DNA of 64,000 bases from a virus. Every line of letters begins with the position of its first letter. Positions within the stretch are counted from its first letter, which is position 1. The notes beneath the pieces are model-generated. The model saw only the letters and a list, made by a program, of their open reading frames with translations. It did not search any database and was not told the origin of the DNA. A program made the position numbers and the translations under genes. Below, one piece after another: positions 16,600 to 21,513 of this stretch. The DNA is taken from IMG/VR virus record IMGVR_UViG_3300048851_000098, positions 60,172-124,171 of that record; one strand, given 5' to 3'.

Positions 16600-16730
16600 A
16601 CTTGACTTCCGCCTCCCAGCAAGTCCAGTCCGATACAAATCGCCAGAGCGATTGCCCAATCATTCCAATCGTTGAAACTGACGTGCGGTGTATCTGAAAT
16701 CAACCACACTACAAACCAAATGAACGTCAT
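16596..16730 (-). CDS. 44-aa membrane peptide (not in ORF track)
   Basis: MTFIWFVVWLISDTPHVSFNDWNDWAIALAICIGLDLLGGGSQV*, ATGA-coupled at both ends. Confidence 0.5.
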   Translation of the reverse strand: MTFIWFVVWLISDTPHVSFNDWNDWAIALAICIGLDLLGGGSQV

Positions 16731-16939
16731 CGAATCACCAGTTTCAACAATCCACCGCAACGTCGTCCATGTTCTTTGACGTGAACGCCTTGACGTTGAA
16801 TTTCACCAATTGCACTGCAACAGGCTTTGATAGGCAAAACAGTGCCACCACGCGGACAAAGAAAGTTCCTCATCCACGAGTAGTTTCCGTTGTATCTACC
16901 GCCACAGCGCTGGCACTGGAATATGTATGACTTAGCCAT
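16727..16939 (-). CDS. Cys-rich small protein
   Basis: Start MAKSY at 16939; CQRC, LCP, CC, RCGG. Confidence 0.5.
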   Translation of the reverse strand: MAKSYIFQCQRCGGRYNGNYSWMRNFLCPRGGTVLPIKACCSAIGEIQRQGVHVKEHGRRCGGLLKLVIR

Positions 16940-17153
16940 CGTCGCTCGCAAGTCGCGACAGAAACGTTCCGATAGCGTCGTTGATGTCATCCCGGAATCT
17001 GACTATACGTCGAGAATCAGCCAGTACATCAGGAGTAACATCAATATTCAGCTTGTCAGCTTCGGACACCAGTTGGCGAAGCTCTTCGACCTGCTCATGA
17101 GAGAGCGAGAGCGCCAATTCCTTGATTTGCTCATCACTCATCATCAGGGTCAA
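16932..17153 (-). CDS. Hypothetical acidic helical protein
   Basis: ORF directly downstream of the tRNA-like RNA. Confidence 0.55.
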   Translation of the reverse strand: MTLMMSDEQIKELALSLSHEQVEELRQLVSEADKLNIDVTPDVLADSRRIVRFRDDINDAIGTFLSRLASDDG

Positions 17154-17309
17154 AAATTTACAGAATATTCCTTGAAATCATCCTATAAAGATAGGCAAAA
17201 CATCCAGCAAGAAGACGCTGCCGGGGTGGTCGCGATCTGCGCGGCCCCAGGGGGTTTAGGGCACTCGTTAGGGCAGACCGATCAACCAGGGGGCACCCCC
17301 GACAGCAGC

Positions 17310-17502
17310 ACGCAGGGTGGGATTTGAACCACACGACCTCCGGGTTGTATCGAGTCTCCGAGCGACTACTTGCGCGCCGGCCGGAATACGCAAGTGCTTA
17401 TCATCGGCTGTCCGGCGGTCGATGCCTCGACCCTCCATGTTTACCGATTTCCACCTGCTCTTTGACTCTTCCCGGTGCTCTACCAGACTGAGCTACCCGC
17501 GT
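17310..17502 (-). ncRNA. tRNA-like RNA with ~119-nt structured insertion in the anticodon loop
   Basis: Minus strand: acceptor ACGCGGG/CCTGCGT; D arm GCTC-AGTCTGGTA-GAGC; anticodon stem CCGGG/CCCGG enclosing 126 nt (17345-17470); AGGTC variable loop; GTTCAAATC T loop. No encoded CCA. Confidence 0.8.
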
Positions 17503-17630
17503 ATGTGATGGGTTGCGATTCCAGACCTTACGCAACCCGAATCGGATTCCCTCCCATACTTCACAGCGAATCCGATTGAATGAAGTAGTCTTCAGCCGCC
17601 CGTTACGACGTGGCTCATCTGGACTTCACT
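17503..17630 (-). ncRNA. Candidate structured RNA immediately 5' of the tRNA-like element
   Basis: Three stems on the minus strand (TGAAGT/ACTTCA, AATCGGATTC/GAATCCGATT, GGGTTGCG/CGCAACCC) plus a possible TCCAGA/TCTGGA pseudoknot, in a region with no credible ORF. Confidence 0.45.
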
Positions 17631-17671
17631 CATGCGATGCACTCTACAGTAGCTTGTGGGCTTTGTCAACC

Positions 17672-18106
17672 CTAGGCGGCGACAAGCTCGCGCCCGCGCA
17701 AGTCCTCCACGGCACGGTCAATGACCTCCGCGCATGCCTCTGCACCATTGCGCACCATGTAGTCCGTGAAGGGGTCTGCTCTCATATCGCTTTCGAAAAA
17801 CGTCGTCCCGGAATCTGCCTCTTCCGGGATGAACGGCATGACAGCCAATTGCGCTCTATCGGCGAGTGGACTGTCATCGAACAGCGATGGAACGACTGGA
17901 ATAACGCCGTAGCCATGCTCGCCCAAATCGTGTGCTGCCATCCGAATGCAGCCGACAAAGCAACCGCGCTCTGCTGTGCCAGTCCACGCCCCTTGAGCCC
18001 CGTCCGCAGTTTCGTACATAGAGTGAAGCGGGTCCTTCACCACTCTGTCAGGATCACGCAGCATTCTGGCGGCTGCTTCGAGCACGTCGATTTCAGAAAC
18101 GCTCAT
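17672..18106 (-). CDS. Conserved phage hypothetical protein
   Basis: AAAGGGACAG RBS variant; GCFVGCI motif; N-terminal VLEAAARML. Confidence 0.7.
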   Translation of the reverse strand: MSVSEIDVLEAAARMLRDPDRVVKDPLHSMYETADGAQGAWTGTAERGCFVGCIRMAAHDLGEHGYGVIPVVPSLFDDSPLADRAQLAVMPFIPEEADSGTTFFESDMRADPFTDYMVRNGAEACAEVIDRAVEDLRGRELVAA

Positions 18107-18372
18107 CTTCTGTCCCTTTCTGCTTCAAGATCCGATACGAGTACATTGATCGGATTTTTGAAATCTGCGGCCAGTTCATCACAGATGATTTCTGCTTCGC
18201 CGTACTCATCATTGATTTCATGAATAGTGCATCTGAGACGGCTTACATTTTCTGATTTGAGTGAGCAGATTTTTCTTAGGAGAAGCGCGTTTGGATACCA
18301 ACCAGAATGCTCTCGAATAACTTCTTCGAGTTCATCTGACAGGATCAGATACGCTGTGTCACCGGTTTGCAT
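18103..18372 (-). CDS. Hypothetical protein
   Basis: Start MQTGD at 18372 (TAATG coupling). Confidence 0.55.
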   Translation of the reverse strand: MQTGDTAYLILSDELEEVIREHSGWYPNALLLRKICSLKSENVSRLRCTIHEINDEYGEAEIICDELAADFKNPINVLVSDLEAERDRR

Positions 18373-18850: not shown

Positions 18851-20533
18851 TTAGATGCTCTCCTGAATGAACTGCGCCATGATCTGTGGTGCGCCAGAGT
18901 CGAACCCGACGACATCCAACATGCCTGGATCTCTTGGGTTAGCGATGCTGTATTCGGTAGCTGTGTAGGCAGCAGCAATCAGCTTTGCTCTGATACCGCT
19001 TTCCTTGCGATAGAACTCCAAAGCTTGCGATGCGTGAATCCCACCATTCCACGACTCGTTATCGGTGTGGATCTCGAAAACGTCGTATTCCTTGCCGTTC
19101 TCACGGGCGTACATGATTGGCAGTGCGCAATCTGTAGCACCCATAAACGGAGACATCGCTCGCATCGCGCGATCAACATCATCGAGACGCTGACGGGGGC
19201 TGAGTGCCATCGGTGTCAAGCCAGGGTAGATCTCTCTACCGGAGTTCCGACTGCGGTAATAACTGTCCCCTCCGCTGGTAAACGCAACCACGTCGTAGGG
19301 ATCGCCCGTCTTCATGCTGGCGAGCGACATCGCACCGGCCGCCTCTGCGGCCACGAACCCTTCGATGCCGGCGACGTACCTCGGGTACGCGCCCCACATC
19401 GAACCGGAGATATCGAGCGCAATCAGACGACGTGCGCCAGTCGGCTCCAAATTGTCGAACGCGAGATAGAACGCCTCATCGAGGGCGTCGAGAATCTGAG
19501 GCACAGGTGTCCACGTCTGCCCGCGCCGGCCCACCCCCGCCGCATAGGTCTTTGAGGCCAGCAGCACGTTGGCAGGGTGGATTCGCGCAGCGCTGATTAC
19601 CTCCGCGTCAGTGAGCGTTCTGCGGATGATGTCCGTCTCTCTGCTTGTGCCAGTGATCACACCATCGCGTGTCATGTTGGCGAGATTGCGAATCATCGCC
19701 GTCATGGGCATTTGTGCATTCAGAAGTGCAGACCAGACCTCGGGCTGATTTCTGTGCTCAGTCAGAATCGCCTCGCGTGGCAGACGGAATCTTTCGATCA
19801 GTCTGGCAGTAGCTCTCGGCGTTCTCGCTCTGAGAGCCTTGCCGGCAGCCTGCACGATCTCCGGGAGATCTCTTTTCTTTCCCTTGTATCTGTTGGTCGC
19901 CCACTGGAAGAGCATCTTCATCTCTTCCATATCTTCGTGAACAACTCTCTCGCGATCCTCTGGATTTGGATGTGCGAGACGCAACAGATCCTCGTGCGAC
20001 CATCCGTCGCGCTGTGGATACTTCACGAGCTGGTAGGCGAGCTTCGGAATTGGCTTCTTCAGATACCAATTCGCCACGGCGTTTCTCATACCACGGCCCC
20101 AGCCGGCGAACTGCTCGCGGAACGTAACGAATTGGAACAAATGTGTGCCGATACGGCAGACATTGTTCACGTTCTCGAATGCGTACTGGCGTGTTGCGTC
20201 ATCACCAAGCGCAGAGGCCATGGCGAGAGCGAACACGGCTTGATCATTCTTCGGTGCGCGAGCGTCCATCGAGATTTCAACGATGGTGTCCACGGTTCTG
20301 ATTCCGTCAAGTTTGCAACACTCGATTACGCACTCGGCGTTTTCACGAGTCAGCTTGCGCTCACCCGTGTAGTAGGTCCCGCCCTCGGAACCGAGAATGA
20401 GGAATCGCCGCAGACGAGCAAAGGGATCGATCTCATAGACGAAACCACCAGCGTTGTTCTCGACCTGATCTTGACCAGGGATCGGTTCGCTCTGTGGTGT
20501 TTCTTTTGCTCCGTAATTTCTCAGATACGACAT
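18851..20533 (-). CDS. rsr: Ro60/TROVE + vWA RNA-binding protein (Rsr)
   Basis: QVENNAGGFVYEIDPFARLRRFLILGSEGGTYY, RIGTHLFQF, WGRGMRNAVANWY, LVKYPQRDGWSHEDLLRLAHP, MPMTAMIRNL, RIHPANVL, vWA ALDISGSM, HTDNESW, MLDVVGFDS. Confidence 0.97.
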   Translation of the reverse strand: MSYLRNYGAKETPQSEPIPGQDQVENNAGGFVYEIDPFARLRRFLILGSEGGTYYTGERKLTRENAECVIECCKLDGIRTVDTIVEISMDARAPKNDQAVFALAMASALGDDATRQYAFENVNNVCRIGTHLFQFVTFREQFAGWGRGMRNAVANWYLKKPIPKLAYQLVKYPQRDGWSHEDLLRLAHPNPEDRERVVHEDMEEMKMLFQWATNRYKGKKRDLPEIVQAAGKALRARTPRATARLIERFRLPREAILTEHRNQPEVWSALLNAQMPMTAMIRNLANMTRDGVITGTSRETDIIRRTLTDAEVISAARIHPANVLLASKTYAAGVGRRGQTWTPVPQILDALDEAFYLAFDNLEPTGARRLIALDISGSMWGAYPRYVAGIEGFVAAEAAGAMSLASMKTGDPYDVVAFTSGGDSYYRSRNSGREIYPGLTPMALSPRQRLDDVDRAMRAMSPFMGATDCALPIMYARENGKEYDVFEIHTDNESWNGGIHASQALEFYRKESGIRAKLIAAAYTATEYSIANPRDPGMLDVVGFDSGAPQIMAQFIQESI

Positions 20534-20716: not shown

Positions 20717-20855
20717 AAGGCTACGAGCAAATTGTTTGGATTCGATATAGGCGCTCTAACCAGGCTGAGCTACACGCCTTTTGAGCGTGACGGGATTCGA
20801 ACCCGCGACCTCCCTCTTATGCGGAGATAATCGATTCCATCCGGCTCGTAGCCTT
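20717..20855 (-). ncRNA. yrlA: Y RNA element 3 with circularly permuted tRNA-like domain (YrlA type)
   Basis: 12-bp terminal stem AAGGCTACGAGC/GCTCGTAGCCTT, bulged C, GGA/TTT, TTATCTC; then T arm GCGGG-TTCGAAT-CCCGT, looped acceptor CACGCT-CAAAA-GGCGTG, D arm GCTC-AGCCTGGTTA-GAGC. Confidence 0.85.
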
Positions 20856-20862
20856 CAAGAGA

Positions 20863-20935
20863 TCTCGCGAACAAATAGTTGGTGATGGGTATTGTCTGTT
20901 CGATAGAGATAACCCAAAACCTCCGGCTCGCGAGA
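20863..20935 (-). ncRNA. Y RNA element 2, minimal (~73 nt, no tRNA domain)
   Basis: TCTCGCGAGC/GTTCGCGAGA stem, bulged C, GGA/TTT, GGGT..AT/ATACCC, TTATCTC, 3' AACTATTTGTTCG; same scaffold as elements 1 and 3. Confidence 0.8.
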
Positions 20936-20957
20936 GCAGTTATTCAGTTGTAAGGGG

Positions 20958-21099
20958 CTGGTCGAACAAATTAGTTGAAAAGCGAGATTTTTTACCACTG
21001 CTCTACCAATTGAGCTACCGACGCTCTTCGAGCCTCGGGCAGGAATCGAACCTGCAACCTTTGGTCCCTGAGATAACGCTTATCGTCCGGCTCGACCAG
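20958..21099 (-). ncRNA. yrlA: Y RNA element 1 with circularly permuted tRNA-like domain (YrlA type)
   Basis: CTGGTCGAGC/GTTCGACCAG stem, bulged C, AAGCG/CGCTT, TTATCTC; T arm GCAGG-TTCGATT-CCTGC, looped acceptor CCGAGGCTC-GAA-GAGCGTCGG, D arm GCTC-AATTGGTA-GAGC. Confidence 0.85.
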
Positions 21100-21513
21100 T
21101 TGTAACTATTTTCTCCTTGACCCTCGCCAATCAGCTCTTCGTGTCTTTCTATTATGAGCCCATTTTCTTGCTGCTCTTCTAGCAGTGGCCCACATAAATC
21201 TACGCTGCTTTTCACTTCTGAATTTACCGCCGCCATGTTTTCTCTGGCGAGAGCGAGAAGCCATTTTCATCTATCTCCCGAAAATCTCTTCCGCCCGACA
21301 TCCGAAGCATACCATGAGATCCGAATCAGATGCAAGGAATCCCTGCAAAAGAAAAGAACTGCCGAGAGATCGCGATACGCGGTGTCTCTCGACAGTCCTT
21401 TTCCCCCAACACAGCGACCAGGCGGGACGTGGTCACTGTCATGGTGAGCCTGCAAGCGAATGCCGGAAGAGGATCAGCAAAACCGGCGGGCTTGCAGGCT
21501 CTCCACGATTATA

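What the first reader, a model, noticed from the sequence alone, without database searches (positions are those of the whole stretch)
17310..17502. tRNA body with a ~119-nt pseudoknotted domain replacing the anticodon
Seen: near-canonical acceptor, D and T arms, but the anticodon stem (CCGGG/CCCGG, three G-C pairs as in initiator tRNA; T loop TTCAAAT) encloses 126 nt. The insert folds by eye into GAGTC/GACTC, GAGC/GCTC, ATCGGT/GCCGAT, GGTCGA/TCGACC and ACTTGCG/CGCAAGT stems, plus a 6-bp GCCGGA/TCCGGC pseudoknot. It is too short for a group I intron and lacks its core; there is no U33, no bulge-helix-bulge and no G3-U70. It lies 1.3 kb downstream of rsr on the same strand and contains GCCGGA...GATAAGC, also present in Y unit 1. 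Inference: a possibly undescribed tRNA-scaffolded ncRNA (ribozyme, aptamer or decoy), or a non-permuted relative of the Y RNAs.
Basis: partly seen in the sequence, partly recalled or inferred. Interest (0 to 1): 0.85.

Follow-up and report, generated by a model that had tools for sequence, protein, structure and literature searches.

The report
Orphan tRNA-shaped RNA beside phage Ro60
An uncultivated soil phage encodes, 1.3 kb downstream of its Ro60 gene, a complete tRNA shape whose anticodon loop is replaced by a stably folding 126-base domain. It cannot decode, matches no catalogued RNA family and has no relative in the collections I could search, so its job is still unknown.

Summary
On the minus strand at 17309-17502 lies a full tRNA cloverleaf: a 7-bp acceptor stem, a 4-bp D stem, a 5-bp anticodon stem, a T arm and every tertiary-contact base. 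The anticodon stem encloses 126 nt. No shuffle of the genome gives such a shape.

The 22-nt variable-plus-T-arm string, including the "bulged" T stem, is identical to initiator-type tRNA-Met genes in ten other viral contigs. The body is therefore tRNA-derived and not decayed. No joining of the flanks gives a 7-nt loop with U33, so it is neither a decoding tRNA nor a cleanly spliced one.

The insert folds far better than shuffles (z = -3.8).

The Y-RNA link is not supported:
- Similarity to the phage's own Y RNAs is at chance level.
- A model of the tRNA-shaped Y RNAs common beside rsr in other phages matches only the tRNA parts.

No homolog of the insert was found, so covariation could not be tested.

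Best reading (confidence about 0.5): a non-decoding, tRNA-scaffolded structured RNA with its own promoter and terminator. Other agents of this scan have seen tRNA-shaped Y RNAs on other DNA; this element is not one of them.

The parts
17641..17669 (-). Sigma-70-like promoter TTGACA-17 nt-TAGAGT. Its -35 hexamer starts 3 nt after the stop codon of the upstream ORF (17672-18106).
   Evidence: 10 of 12 consensus matches. It is the only promoter-like site in 16600-18200, but shuffles also give about 1, so the signal is positional rather than statistical.
17503..17640 (-). Putative 5' leader with three stable hairpins. It ends 6-7 nt before the acceptor stem, and position -1 is U.
   Evidence: MFE -51 kcal/mol, z = -3.18, 0 of 200 shuffles as stable.
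17471..17502 (-). tRNA 5' half. It comprises the acceptor 5' strand (17496-17502), U8 and A9, the D arm (17477-17493), A26, and the anticodon-stem 5' strand CCGGG (17471-17475).
17345..17470 (-). 126-nt insert in place of the anticodon loop. Robust helices:
- GAGUC/GACUC (17464-17468 / 17352-17356)
- AUCGGU/GCCGAU (17443-17448 / 17403-17408)
- GGUCGA/UCGACC (17427-17432 / 17417-17422), capped by GGCA

GCCGGA lies at 17411-17416 and its complement UCCGGC at about 17381-17386.
   Evidence: -: MFE -55.5 kcal/mol, z = -3.80, 0 of 200 shuffles as stable.
- pair probabilities for each stem.
- no other copy or homolog found.
17309..17344 (-). tRNA 3' half:
- anticodon-stem 3' strand CCCGG
- variable region AGGTC
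- T arm GTG(T)GG-TTCAAAT-CCCAC
- acceptor 3' strand CCTGCGT
- discriminator G

No CCA is encoded.
   Evidence: -.
- the 22-mer GGTCGTGTGGTTCAAATCCCAC is exact in 10 viral contigs. All ten copies lie in initiator-type tRNA-Met(CAT) genes.
17196..17308 (-). 3' trailer. A long imperfect hairpin (GCUGUCGGGG...CCCCGGCAGC) is followed by a U-rich tract and looks like a terminator.
   Evidence: -: terminator-like sites at 17224-17204.
- MFE -47.1 kcal/mol, z = -1.8.
18851..20533 (-). rsr (Ro60 orthologue), given as context and not shown to be a partner.
   Evidence: TROVE E = 8.8e-48, Ro60 vWA E = 7.2e-45.
20718..21100 (-). The phage's classical (YrlA-topology) Y RNA array upstream of rsr. It is context and served as the comparison set.
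   Evidence: YrlA RF02553 at 42.9 and 41.7 bits, below the gathering score, E about 1e-7.

Best explanation
It is a non-decoding, tRNA-scaffolded structured RNA of the phage.

**Shown**
- The tRNA body is complete and undecayed.
- Its anticodon stem (three G-C pairs), variable region and T arm are of the initiator tRNA-Met type.
- It has no anticodon loop.
- A 126-nt domain extends the anticodon arm into a long irregular helix with a side branch and folds far better than chance.

**Inferred**
- The unit is transcribed from its own promoter as a precursor of about 430 nt.
- RNase P cuts at A1 (7-bp acceptor, U at -1), the trailer is trimmed, and CCA may be added.
- The product is a stable RNA of about 195 nt.
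- In it the tRNA body supplies processing, modification and nuclease protection, as in engineered "tRNA scaffold" RNAs.
- The insert is the working part, most likely a protein-binding module.

Its place in the accessory arm next to rsr and the Y RNAs makes the phage Ro60 particle the first partner to test. No docking site for Ro60 could be recognised.
For: - The cloverleaf has all stems fully paired and all tertiary-contact bases: U8, A14, G15:C48, G18, G19, A21, G46, G53, T54, T55, C56, A58 and C61.
- The cloverleaf descriptor gives 0 hits in 12 shuffles of the genome.
- ARAGORN accepts the body once introns are allowed.
- The class-A model R2 aligns the whole body at 41.7 bits, E = 1.8e-10.
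- The T-arm 22-mer is identical to real initiator-type tRNA-Met genes, so the bulged T stem is a lineage trait and not decay.
- No U33 loop can be made from the flanks.
- The insert has z = -3.8, the leader z = -3.2, and promoter-like and terminator-like signals flank the unit.
- The 520-680 nt stretch has no credible minus-strand ORF, in an otherwise densely coding phage arm.
- The same phage holds a second anticodon-less tRNA shape in its tRNA array.
Against: - It is a single sequence. No homolog of the insert was found in 166 Rsr loci, 42 whole Rsr-encoding virus records or the rest of the genome. There is therefore no covariation and no evidence of conservation.
- The promoter match is no more than shuffles give.
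- The fold is ambiguous between two topologies.
- No partner or activity is identified.
Confidence: 0.5

Rival explanations
1. It is a Ro60 (Rsr) partner RNA: a Y RNA in a third topology, with free acceptor ends and a non-canonical docking site inside the insert. That site would be the fully paired GGUCGA/UCGACC hairpin or the GCCGGA strand.
For: - It lies 1.35 kb downstream of rsr on the same strand.
- tRNA bodies carrying a Ro60 docking hairpin in the anticodon arm are common beside rsr in other phages.
- The insert contains GGGUCGA and GCCGGA, the 5'-strand motifs of Y RNAs in other phages and in this phage respectively.
Against: - The class-A model skips the whole docking module. The score of 41.7 bits equals that of an ordinary tRNA.
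- There is no UUGCC-loop-GGC[C]GA hairpin and no GGUUAUC motif.
- The only bulged-C helix (CGC[C]GG/UUGCG) is matched by 9% of shuffles and conflicts with stronger helices.
- Similarity to the phage's own Y RNAs is at chance level.
- Three unrelated ORFs separate the element from rsr.
Confidence: 0.2
2. It is a decaying or disrupted tRNA gene: a pseudo-tRNA whose anticodon loop was hit by an insertion and which no longer has a function.
For: - It is a singleton with no detectable relatives.
- It has no anticodon.
- The D stem is of elongator type (C11:G24) while the 3' half is of initiator type, which could reflect a mosaic origin.
Against: - Every stem of the body is still perfectly paired and every invariant base is kept.
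- The insert itself is strongly structured, with z = -3.8.
- Flanking leader and terminator structures are present.
- Phages rarely keep 0.5 kb of dead DNA.
Confidence: 0.17
3. It is an intron-containing tRNA gene. The insert would be removed by an unknown small self-splicing or protein-dependent mechanism to give a working tRNA.
For: - With introns allowed, ARAGORN calls it tRNA-Thr(AGT) with a 101-nt intron.
- Bacterial tRNA genes, including initiator tRNA genes of cyanobacteria, can carry group I introns in the anticodon loop (my own knowledge, not checked here).
Against: - The ARAGORN reading needs a G.U-containing alternative stem, C37, A34 and a 23-nt variable arm on a Thr tRNA.
- No joining of the flanks around CCGGG/CCCGG gives U33.
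- 126 nt is well below the roughly 200 nt of the smallest group I introns I know of.
- Rfam group I and II intron and ribozyme models give nothing at E <= 10.
Confidence: 0.06

Closest known systems
tRNA-shaped ("class A") Y RNAs beside rsr in phages and metagenomes. These are circular permutations of YrlA, with free acceptor ends and a loop-closed Ro60 docking helix in the anticodon arm. I re-found them here in L002, L014, L022, L026, L046, L050, L052, L077, L080, L087, L102, L127, L137, L144 and L162. Other agents of this scan noted them too. I found no paper describing them.
   Same: - The tRNA body is complete and the 5'/3' ends lie in the acceptor stem.
- The anticodon loop is replaced by a structured insert.
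- The gene sits in a phage close to rsr.
   Different: - Class-A inserts are 52-112 nt and carry (C)UUGCC-loop-GGGC[C]GR followed by GGUUAUC...GGGA. They lie just upstream of rsr.
- This insert is 126 nt, has none of these motifs and lies 1.35 kb downstream of rsr behind three ORFs.
- It scores like a plain tRNA under the class-A model.
YrlA (Rfam RF02553; Chen et al. 2014, PMC4201824), the tRNA-like Y RNA bound by Rsr.
   Same: - It is a tRNA mimic with D and T arms and an acceptor stem.
- It is encoded near rsr, and this phage also has YrlA-type RNAs.
- M. smegmatis YrlA is cut by RNase P and receives CCA (PMC4201824).
   Different: - In YrlA the acceptor stem is closed by a loop, and the RNA ends form the Ro60-binding stem where the anticodon stem would be.
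- Here the ends are in the acceptor stem and no Ro60-binding helix is recognisable.
- No YrlA hit was found at E <= 10.
tmRNA
   Same: It has a tRNA-like domain whose anticodon arm is replaced by a long helix leading to pseudoknotted domains. It is also processed by RNase P.
   Different: - There is no G3.U70.
- There is no tag reading frame ending in a hydrophobic tail.
- A full D stem is present.
- At 195 nt it is about half the size of tmRNA.
- ARAGORN and Rfam give no tmRNA call here.
Initiator tRNA-Met genes of phages (L168-L177)
   Same: - The 22-nt variable-plus-T-arm string is identical, including the extra T in the T stem.
- The anticodon stem has three G-C pairs.
   Different: - There is no CAU anticodon loop.
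- The D stem is C11:G24, not A11:U24.
- Position 1:72 is an A-U pair, not a C x A mismatch.
Engineered tRNA scaffolds, in which RNAs are inserted in the anticodon stem of tRNA-Met or tRNA-Lys for stable expression (Ponchon and Dardel 2007; from my own knowledge, not checked here).
   Same: The wiring is the same: a foreign structured RNA replaces the anticodon loop of a tRNA body that supplies processing and stability.
   Different: Those are laboratory constructs. This would be a natural example.

Membership tests
tRNA (decoding) | Cloverleaf with a 7-bp acceptor stem, D and T arms and conserved tertiary bases. | tested here: met
   -.
- 0 hits in 12 shuffles.
- the body aligns over the full model.
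tRNA (decoding) | A 7-nt anticodon loop with U33 and a purine at position 37, either directly or after removal of an intron. | tested here: not met
   - none of the 8 possible joins has U33.
- the ARAGORN -i reading needs C37 and a 23-nt variable arm.
Bacterial initiator tRNA-Met | Three G-C pairs in the anticodon stem, and an initiator-type variable region and T arm. | tested here: met
   -.
- the 22-mer is exact in 10 initiator-type tRNA-Met genes.
Bacterial initiator tRNA-Met | A 1 x 72 mismatch, A11:U24 and a CAU anticodon. | tested here: not met
   A1-U72 is paired, position 11:24 is C11:G24, and there is no anticodon loop.
tRNA-shaped (class A) Y RNA | Loop-closed Ro60 docking helix in the anticodon arm: UUGCC-loop-GGC[C]GR with a bulged C. 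| tested here: not met
   - model R2 skips 59 positions, including the whole docking module.
- no descriptor match in the permuted orientation.
- true members score 60-122 bits against 41.7 bits here.
tRNA-shaped (class A) Y RNA | A tRNA body with free, covarying acceptor ends. | tested here: met
   - for this element.
- for covariation in the class itself.
YrlA / Y RNA (RF02553) | Match to the family model, meaning a Ro60-binding stem formed by the RNA ends plus a permuted tRNA module. | tested here: not met
   - no hit at E <= 10, while the phage's true Y RNAs score about 42 bits.
- sequence similarity is at chance level.
YrlA / Y RNA (RF02553) | Binding to Ro60/Rsr. | not testable with these tools
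   This needs co-purification or a gel shift.
Group I intron in a tRNA | A conserved P3-P7 core, a size of about 200 nt or more, and exon junctions that restore the loop. | tested here: not met
   - no intron model matches at E <= 10.
- The insert is only 126 nt.
- the flanks cannot restore the loop.
tmRNA | G3.U70, a tag ORF and pseudoknots. | tested here: not met
   -.
- Position 3:70 is G3-C70.
- Only spurious permuted calls appear at a lowered threshold.

The most novel reading that the evidence does not exclude
The element is the first seen member of a new kind of phage RNA. An initiator-tRNA-derived body would act as a natural "tRNA scaffold". It would present a 126-nt, possibly pseudoknotted, domain with an activity of its own. 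That activity could be an aptamer, a ribozyme, or a new Ro60-independent or non-canonical Ro60 partner. The GCCGGA/UCCGGC pair could form an internal pseudoknot, or it could pair with the docking strand shared by the phage's three Y RNAs.
Probability: 0.2. Interest if true: 0.75.

Novelty: new variant of a known kind. Interest (0 to 1): 0.5.

Why it matters
tRNA mimics (tmRNA, YrlA, viral tRNA-like structures) reuse the tRNA fold to recruit tRNA-handling enzymes. A natural RNA that keeps a complete, end-open tRNA body while swapping the anticodon loop for a large autonomous domain would be the natural counterpart of the engineered tRNA scaffold. It would also add a Ro60-neighbouring RNA that lacks the known docking helix.

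If it binds Rsr, it widens what Ro60 recognises. If it does not, it points to another tRNA-mimic pathway in phages. As it stands it is a well-formed singleton without conservation or expression data, so its weight is limited.

Tried and rejected
**Searches for a known family or a relative**
- Rfam at the gathering threshold and at E <= 10 found nothing at the element.
- blastn against 50,697 phage records found no match.
- An exact architecture pattern and a 5'-junction pattern searched in viral contigs gave 0 hits.
- nhmmer and blastn of the element against 166 loci and the rest of the genome found no copies.
- The single-sequence model R1 of the insert hit only itself in Rsr loci and in 42 whole Rsr-encoding virus records.
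- A genome-collection scan for GGTCGANNNNTCGACCGCCGGA gave more than 120 hits in GC-rich bacteria. None extends beyond the 23 matched bases under R1, so they are chance matches.

**Searches for kin of the phage**
- tblastn of ten flanking ORFs against the 166 loci found nothing.
- ORF144 and the portal protein found no kin in viral contigs.
- The closest Rsr proteins (P0002, P0003, P0006, P0008; 53-57% identity, on 60-125 kb contigs) could not be fetched.

**Other checks**
- Comparing the body with 496 distinct phage tRNAs gave no clear isoacceptor identity.
- A tmRNA reading was rejected.
- An attP reading was rejected, because both tRNA halves are present with a perfectly complementary acceptor.
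- One caution was checked. Tandem YrlA genes can masquerade as open tRNA shapes, as R2 hit 2 at 20782-21026 shows. No T arm lies upstream and no D arm lies downstream of this element, so that artefact does not apply here.

Full report
**Where and what**

The window is bases 60172-124171 of a 124-kb IMG/VR virus record. The feature lies on the minus strand at 17309-17502.

Read 5' to 3' it is ACGCGGG-TA-GCTC-AGTCTGGTA-GAGC-A-CCGGG-[126 nt]-CCCGG-AGGTC-GTGTGG-TTCAAAT-CCCAC-CCTGCGT-G. Its parts are:
- a 7-bp acceptor stem with G5.U68
- U8 and A9
- a 4-bp D stem whose loop holds A14, G15, G18, G19 and A21
- a 5-bp anticodon stem with three G-C pairs
- a 5-nt variable region with G46 and C48
- a T arm with G53, T54, T55, C56, A58 and C61
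- a G discriminator, with no encoded CCA

The gene at 18851-20533 on the same strand is Ro60/Rsr, with TROVE (8.8e-48) and Ro60 vWA (7.2e-45) domains. It ends 1349 nt upstream of the element.

**Is the shape more than chance?**

I wrote a strict descriptor for a split cloverleaf. It requires acceptor 7/7, D 4/4, anticodon stem 5/5, T stem 5/5 with at most one bulge, GG in the D loop, a T-loop motif, a variable region of at most 6 nt, and any insert of 0-300 nt. In the real genome it finds the ordinary tRNAs and this single insert-bearing hit. In 12 dinucleotide shuffles of the whole 124-kb genome it finds nothing.

Default ARAGORN misses the element. With introns allowed it reports the same coordinates.

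The one apparent blemish is the extra T in the T stem, and it is not decay. The 22-mer GGTCGTGTGGTTCAAATCCCAC occurs exactly in ten other viral contigs. In all ten it is the variable-plus-T-arm of an initiator-type tRNA-Met(CAT) gene. The anticodon stem and 3' half are therefore initiator-like. The D stem (C11:G24) and the A1-U72 pair are not. A comparison with 496 phage tRNAs gave no single nearest isoacceptor.

**Not a decoding or cleanly spliced tRNA**

None of the eight ways of joining the flanks of the insert into a 7-nt loop has U33. ARAGORN's "tRNA-Thr(AGT) with a 101-nt intron" needs four unusual features: an alternative stem with a G.U pair, C37, A34, and a 23-nt variable arm on a Thr tRNA. 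Rfam has no intron, ribozyme, tmRNA or Y RNA match here even at E <= 10.

**The insert**

Alone with its closing stem it folds to -55.5 kcal/mol, against -41.2 +/- 3.8 for shuffles. That gives z = -3.8, and 0 of 200 shuffles fold as well.

In the ensemble, four helices have pair probabilities above 0.95: the anticodon stem, GAGUC/GACUC, AUCGGU/GCCGAU, and GGUCGA/UCGACC capped by GGCA.

The GCCGGA/UCCGGC duplex is worth about -10 kcal/mol. The pseudoknotted fold and the nested MFE fold are therefore close rivals that only probing or covariation can separate.

**Transcription unit**

Several features suggest an independent unit:
- A TTGACA-17-TAGAGT promoter-like site starts 3 nt after the stop codon of the upstream ORF.
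- A 138-nt leader forms three stable hairpins, with z = -3.2.
- U lies at -1 before the acceptor stem.
- The trailer is a long hairpin followed by a U-rich tract.

The promoter match alone is no more than shuffles give. The unit is therefore inferred, not shown.

**The Y-RNA question**

The phage has classical YrlA-topology Y RNAs upstream of rsr, scoring 42.9 and 41.7 bits for RF02553. An earlier agent reached the same conclusion.

While looking for relatives I fetched 166 Rsr loci from viral and metagenome collections. In them I found many tRNA bodies with free acceptor ends and 52-112-nt inserts, just upstream of rsr. Nine of them align well. Every acceptor pair covaries. They share (C)UUGCC-loop-GGGC[C]GR followed by GGUUAUC...GGGA. 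This is a loop-closed copy of the Ro60 docking helix, so these RNAs are circular permutations of YrlA. Other agents of this scan reported the same class on other DNA. I found no paper describing it.

- A covariance model of the class (R2) gives true members 60-122 bits with the docking hairpin aligned.
- Our element scores 41.7 bits with 59 model positions, including the whole docking module, skipped. The ordinary tRNA-Glu of the window scores 33 bits, and ordinary tRNAs elsewhere score 37-63 bits.
- A strict docking descriptor finds nothing in the permuted orientation. It finds one weak CGC[C]GG/UUGCG helix in the normal orientation. Nine percent of shuffles match that, and it conflicts with stronger helices.
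- Local alignment of the insert to the phage's three Y RNAs is at chance level: 94, 466 and 321 of 500 shuffles score as well.

The motifs GGGUCGA and GCCGGA are present. The first is fully paired without a bulge, and no GGUUAUC follows.

**No relatives**

The insert has no detectable relative:
- It has no copy elsewhere in the genome.
- It has no nhmmer hit in the loci.
- Its single-sequence model R1 has no hit in the Rsr loci or in 42 whole Rsr-encoding virus records.
- Exact-pattern scans of viral contigs were empty.
- A scan of the genome collection gave only chance 23-nt matches.

The flanking ORFs, ORF144 (DUF6197-like according to the Atlas) and the portal protein have no kin in the collections I could reach. 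Conservation, expression, RNA ends and splicing therefore remain untested.

**Reading**

The best-supported explanation is a non-decoding, tRNA-scaffolded structured RNA (confidence about 0.5). The intact body would direct RNase P cleavage, 3' trimming and perhaps CCA addition, and would stabilise the RNA. The insert would be the functional module. The rivals are:
- a Ro60 partner with a non-canonical docking site (0.2)
- a disrupted pseudo-tRNA (0.17)
- an intron-bearing tRNA (0.06)

**Novelty**

This is a new variant of a known kind, the tRNA-mimic non-coding RNAs. It is distinct from YrlA, from the tRNA-shaped Y RNAs, and from tmRNA. Interest is moderate, because it is a clean but solitary example.

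Noticed in passing
G000:C1:41552-41647 (+), outside the window, in the phage's tRNA array: This is a second anticodon-less tRNA shape in the same phage. It has a normal acceptor stem and D and T arms. A 6-bp anticodon stem runs straight into an 8-bp extension capped by GGUA, with a 7-nt bulge AAGAGAA on the 3' side. ARAGORN forces it into a 96-nt tRNA-Arg(CCG). It has no Ro60 docking motif.
   Followed up: partly
L002:5479-5737; L022:1663-2017; L026:9442-9847; L080:270-528; L087:9132-9407; L144:1202-1639, and others: tRNA-shaped Y RNAs lie just upstream of rsr in many phage and metagenome contigs, often in tandem. They have free, covarying acceptor ends and a loop-closed Ro60 docking helix followed by GGUUAUC. 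They are circular permutations of YrlA. I found no paper describing them, and other agents of this scan saw them too.
   Followed up: yes
L004:4676-4770 and L005:5135-5230: These are 95-96-nt tRNA hits (58-59 bits) that carry two consecutive anticodon-like stem-loops. The loops read CUCUAAA and UUCUAAC in L004, and CCCUAAA and UUUUAAC in L005. That gives CUA or UUA anticodons, so they may be stop-codon suppressor tRNAs of unusual build, sitting upstream of the Y RNA arrays.
   Followed up: no
L103:6276-6406: A 131-nt tRNA-Pro(CGG)-like gene keeps a normal anticodon arm but has a variable region of about 58 nt. It lies in a tRNA array upstream of rsr.
   Followed up: no
window 17503-17640 (-): Three adjacent stable hairpins (z = -3.2) lie between the promoter-like site and the tRNA-shaped RNA. 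If RNase P cuts at 17502, they would be released as a separate RNA of about 130 nt.
   Followed up: partly
window 20782-21026 (-): The class-A model also scores 41.3 bits across the D arm of Y RNA 1 and the T arm of Y RNA 3. Their acceptor hairpin strands happen to be complementary. Tandem YrlA genes can therefore be misread as open tRNA-shaped RNAs, which is a caution for searches of this kind.
   Followed up: yes
L168-L177: Ten phage initiator-type tRNA-Met genes share a T stem with one extra nucleotide (GTG-T-GG/CCCAC). This is the same feature as in the element, so it is a recurrent trait of this tRNA type and not an error.
   Followed up: partly
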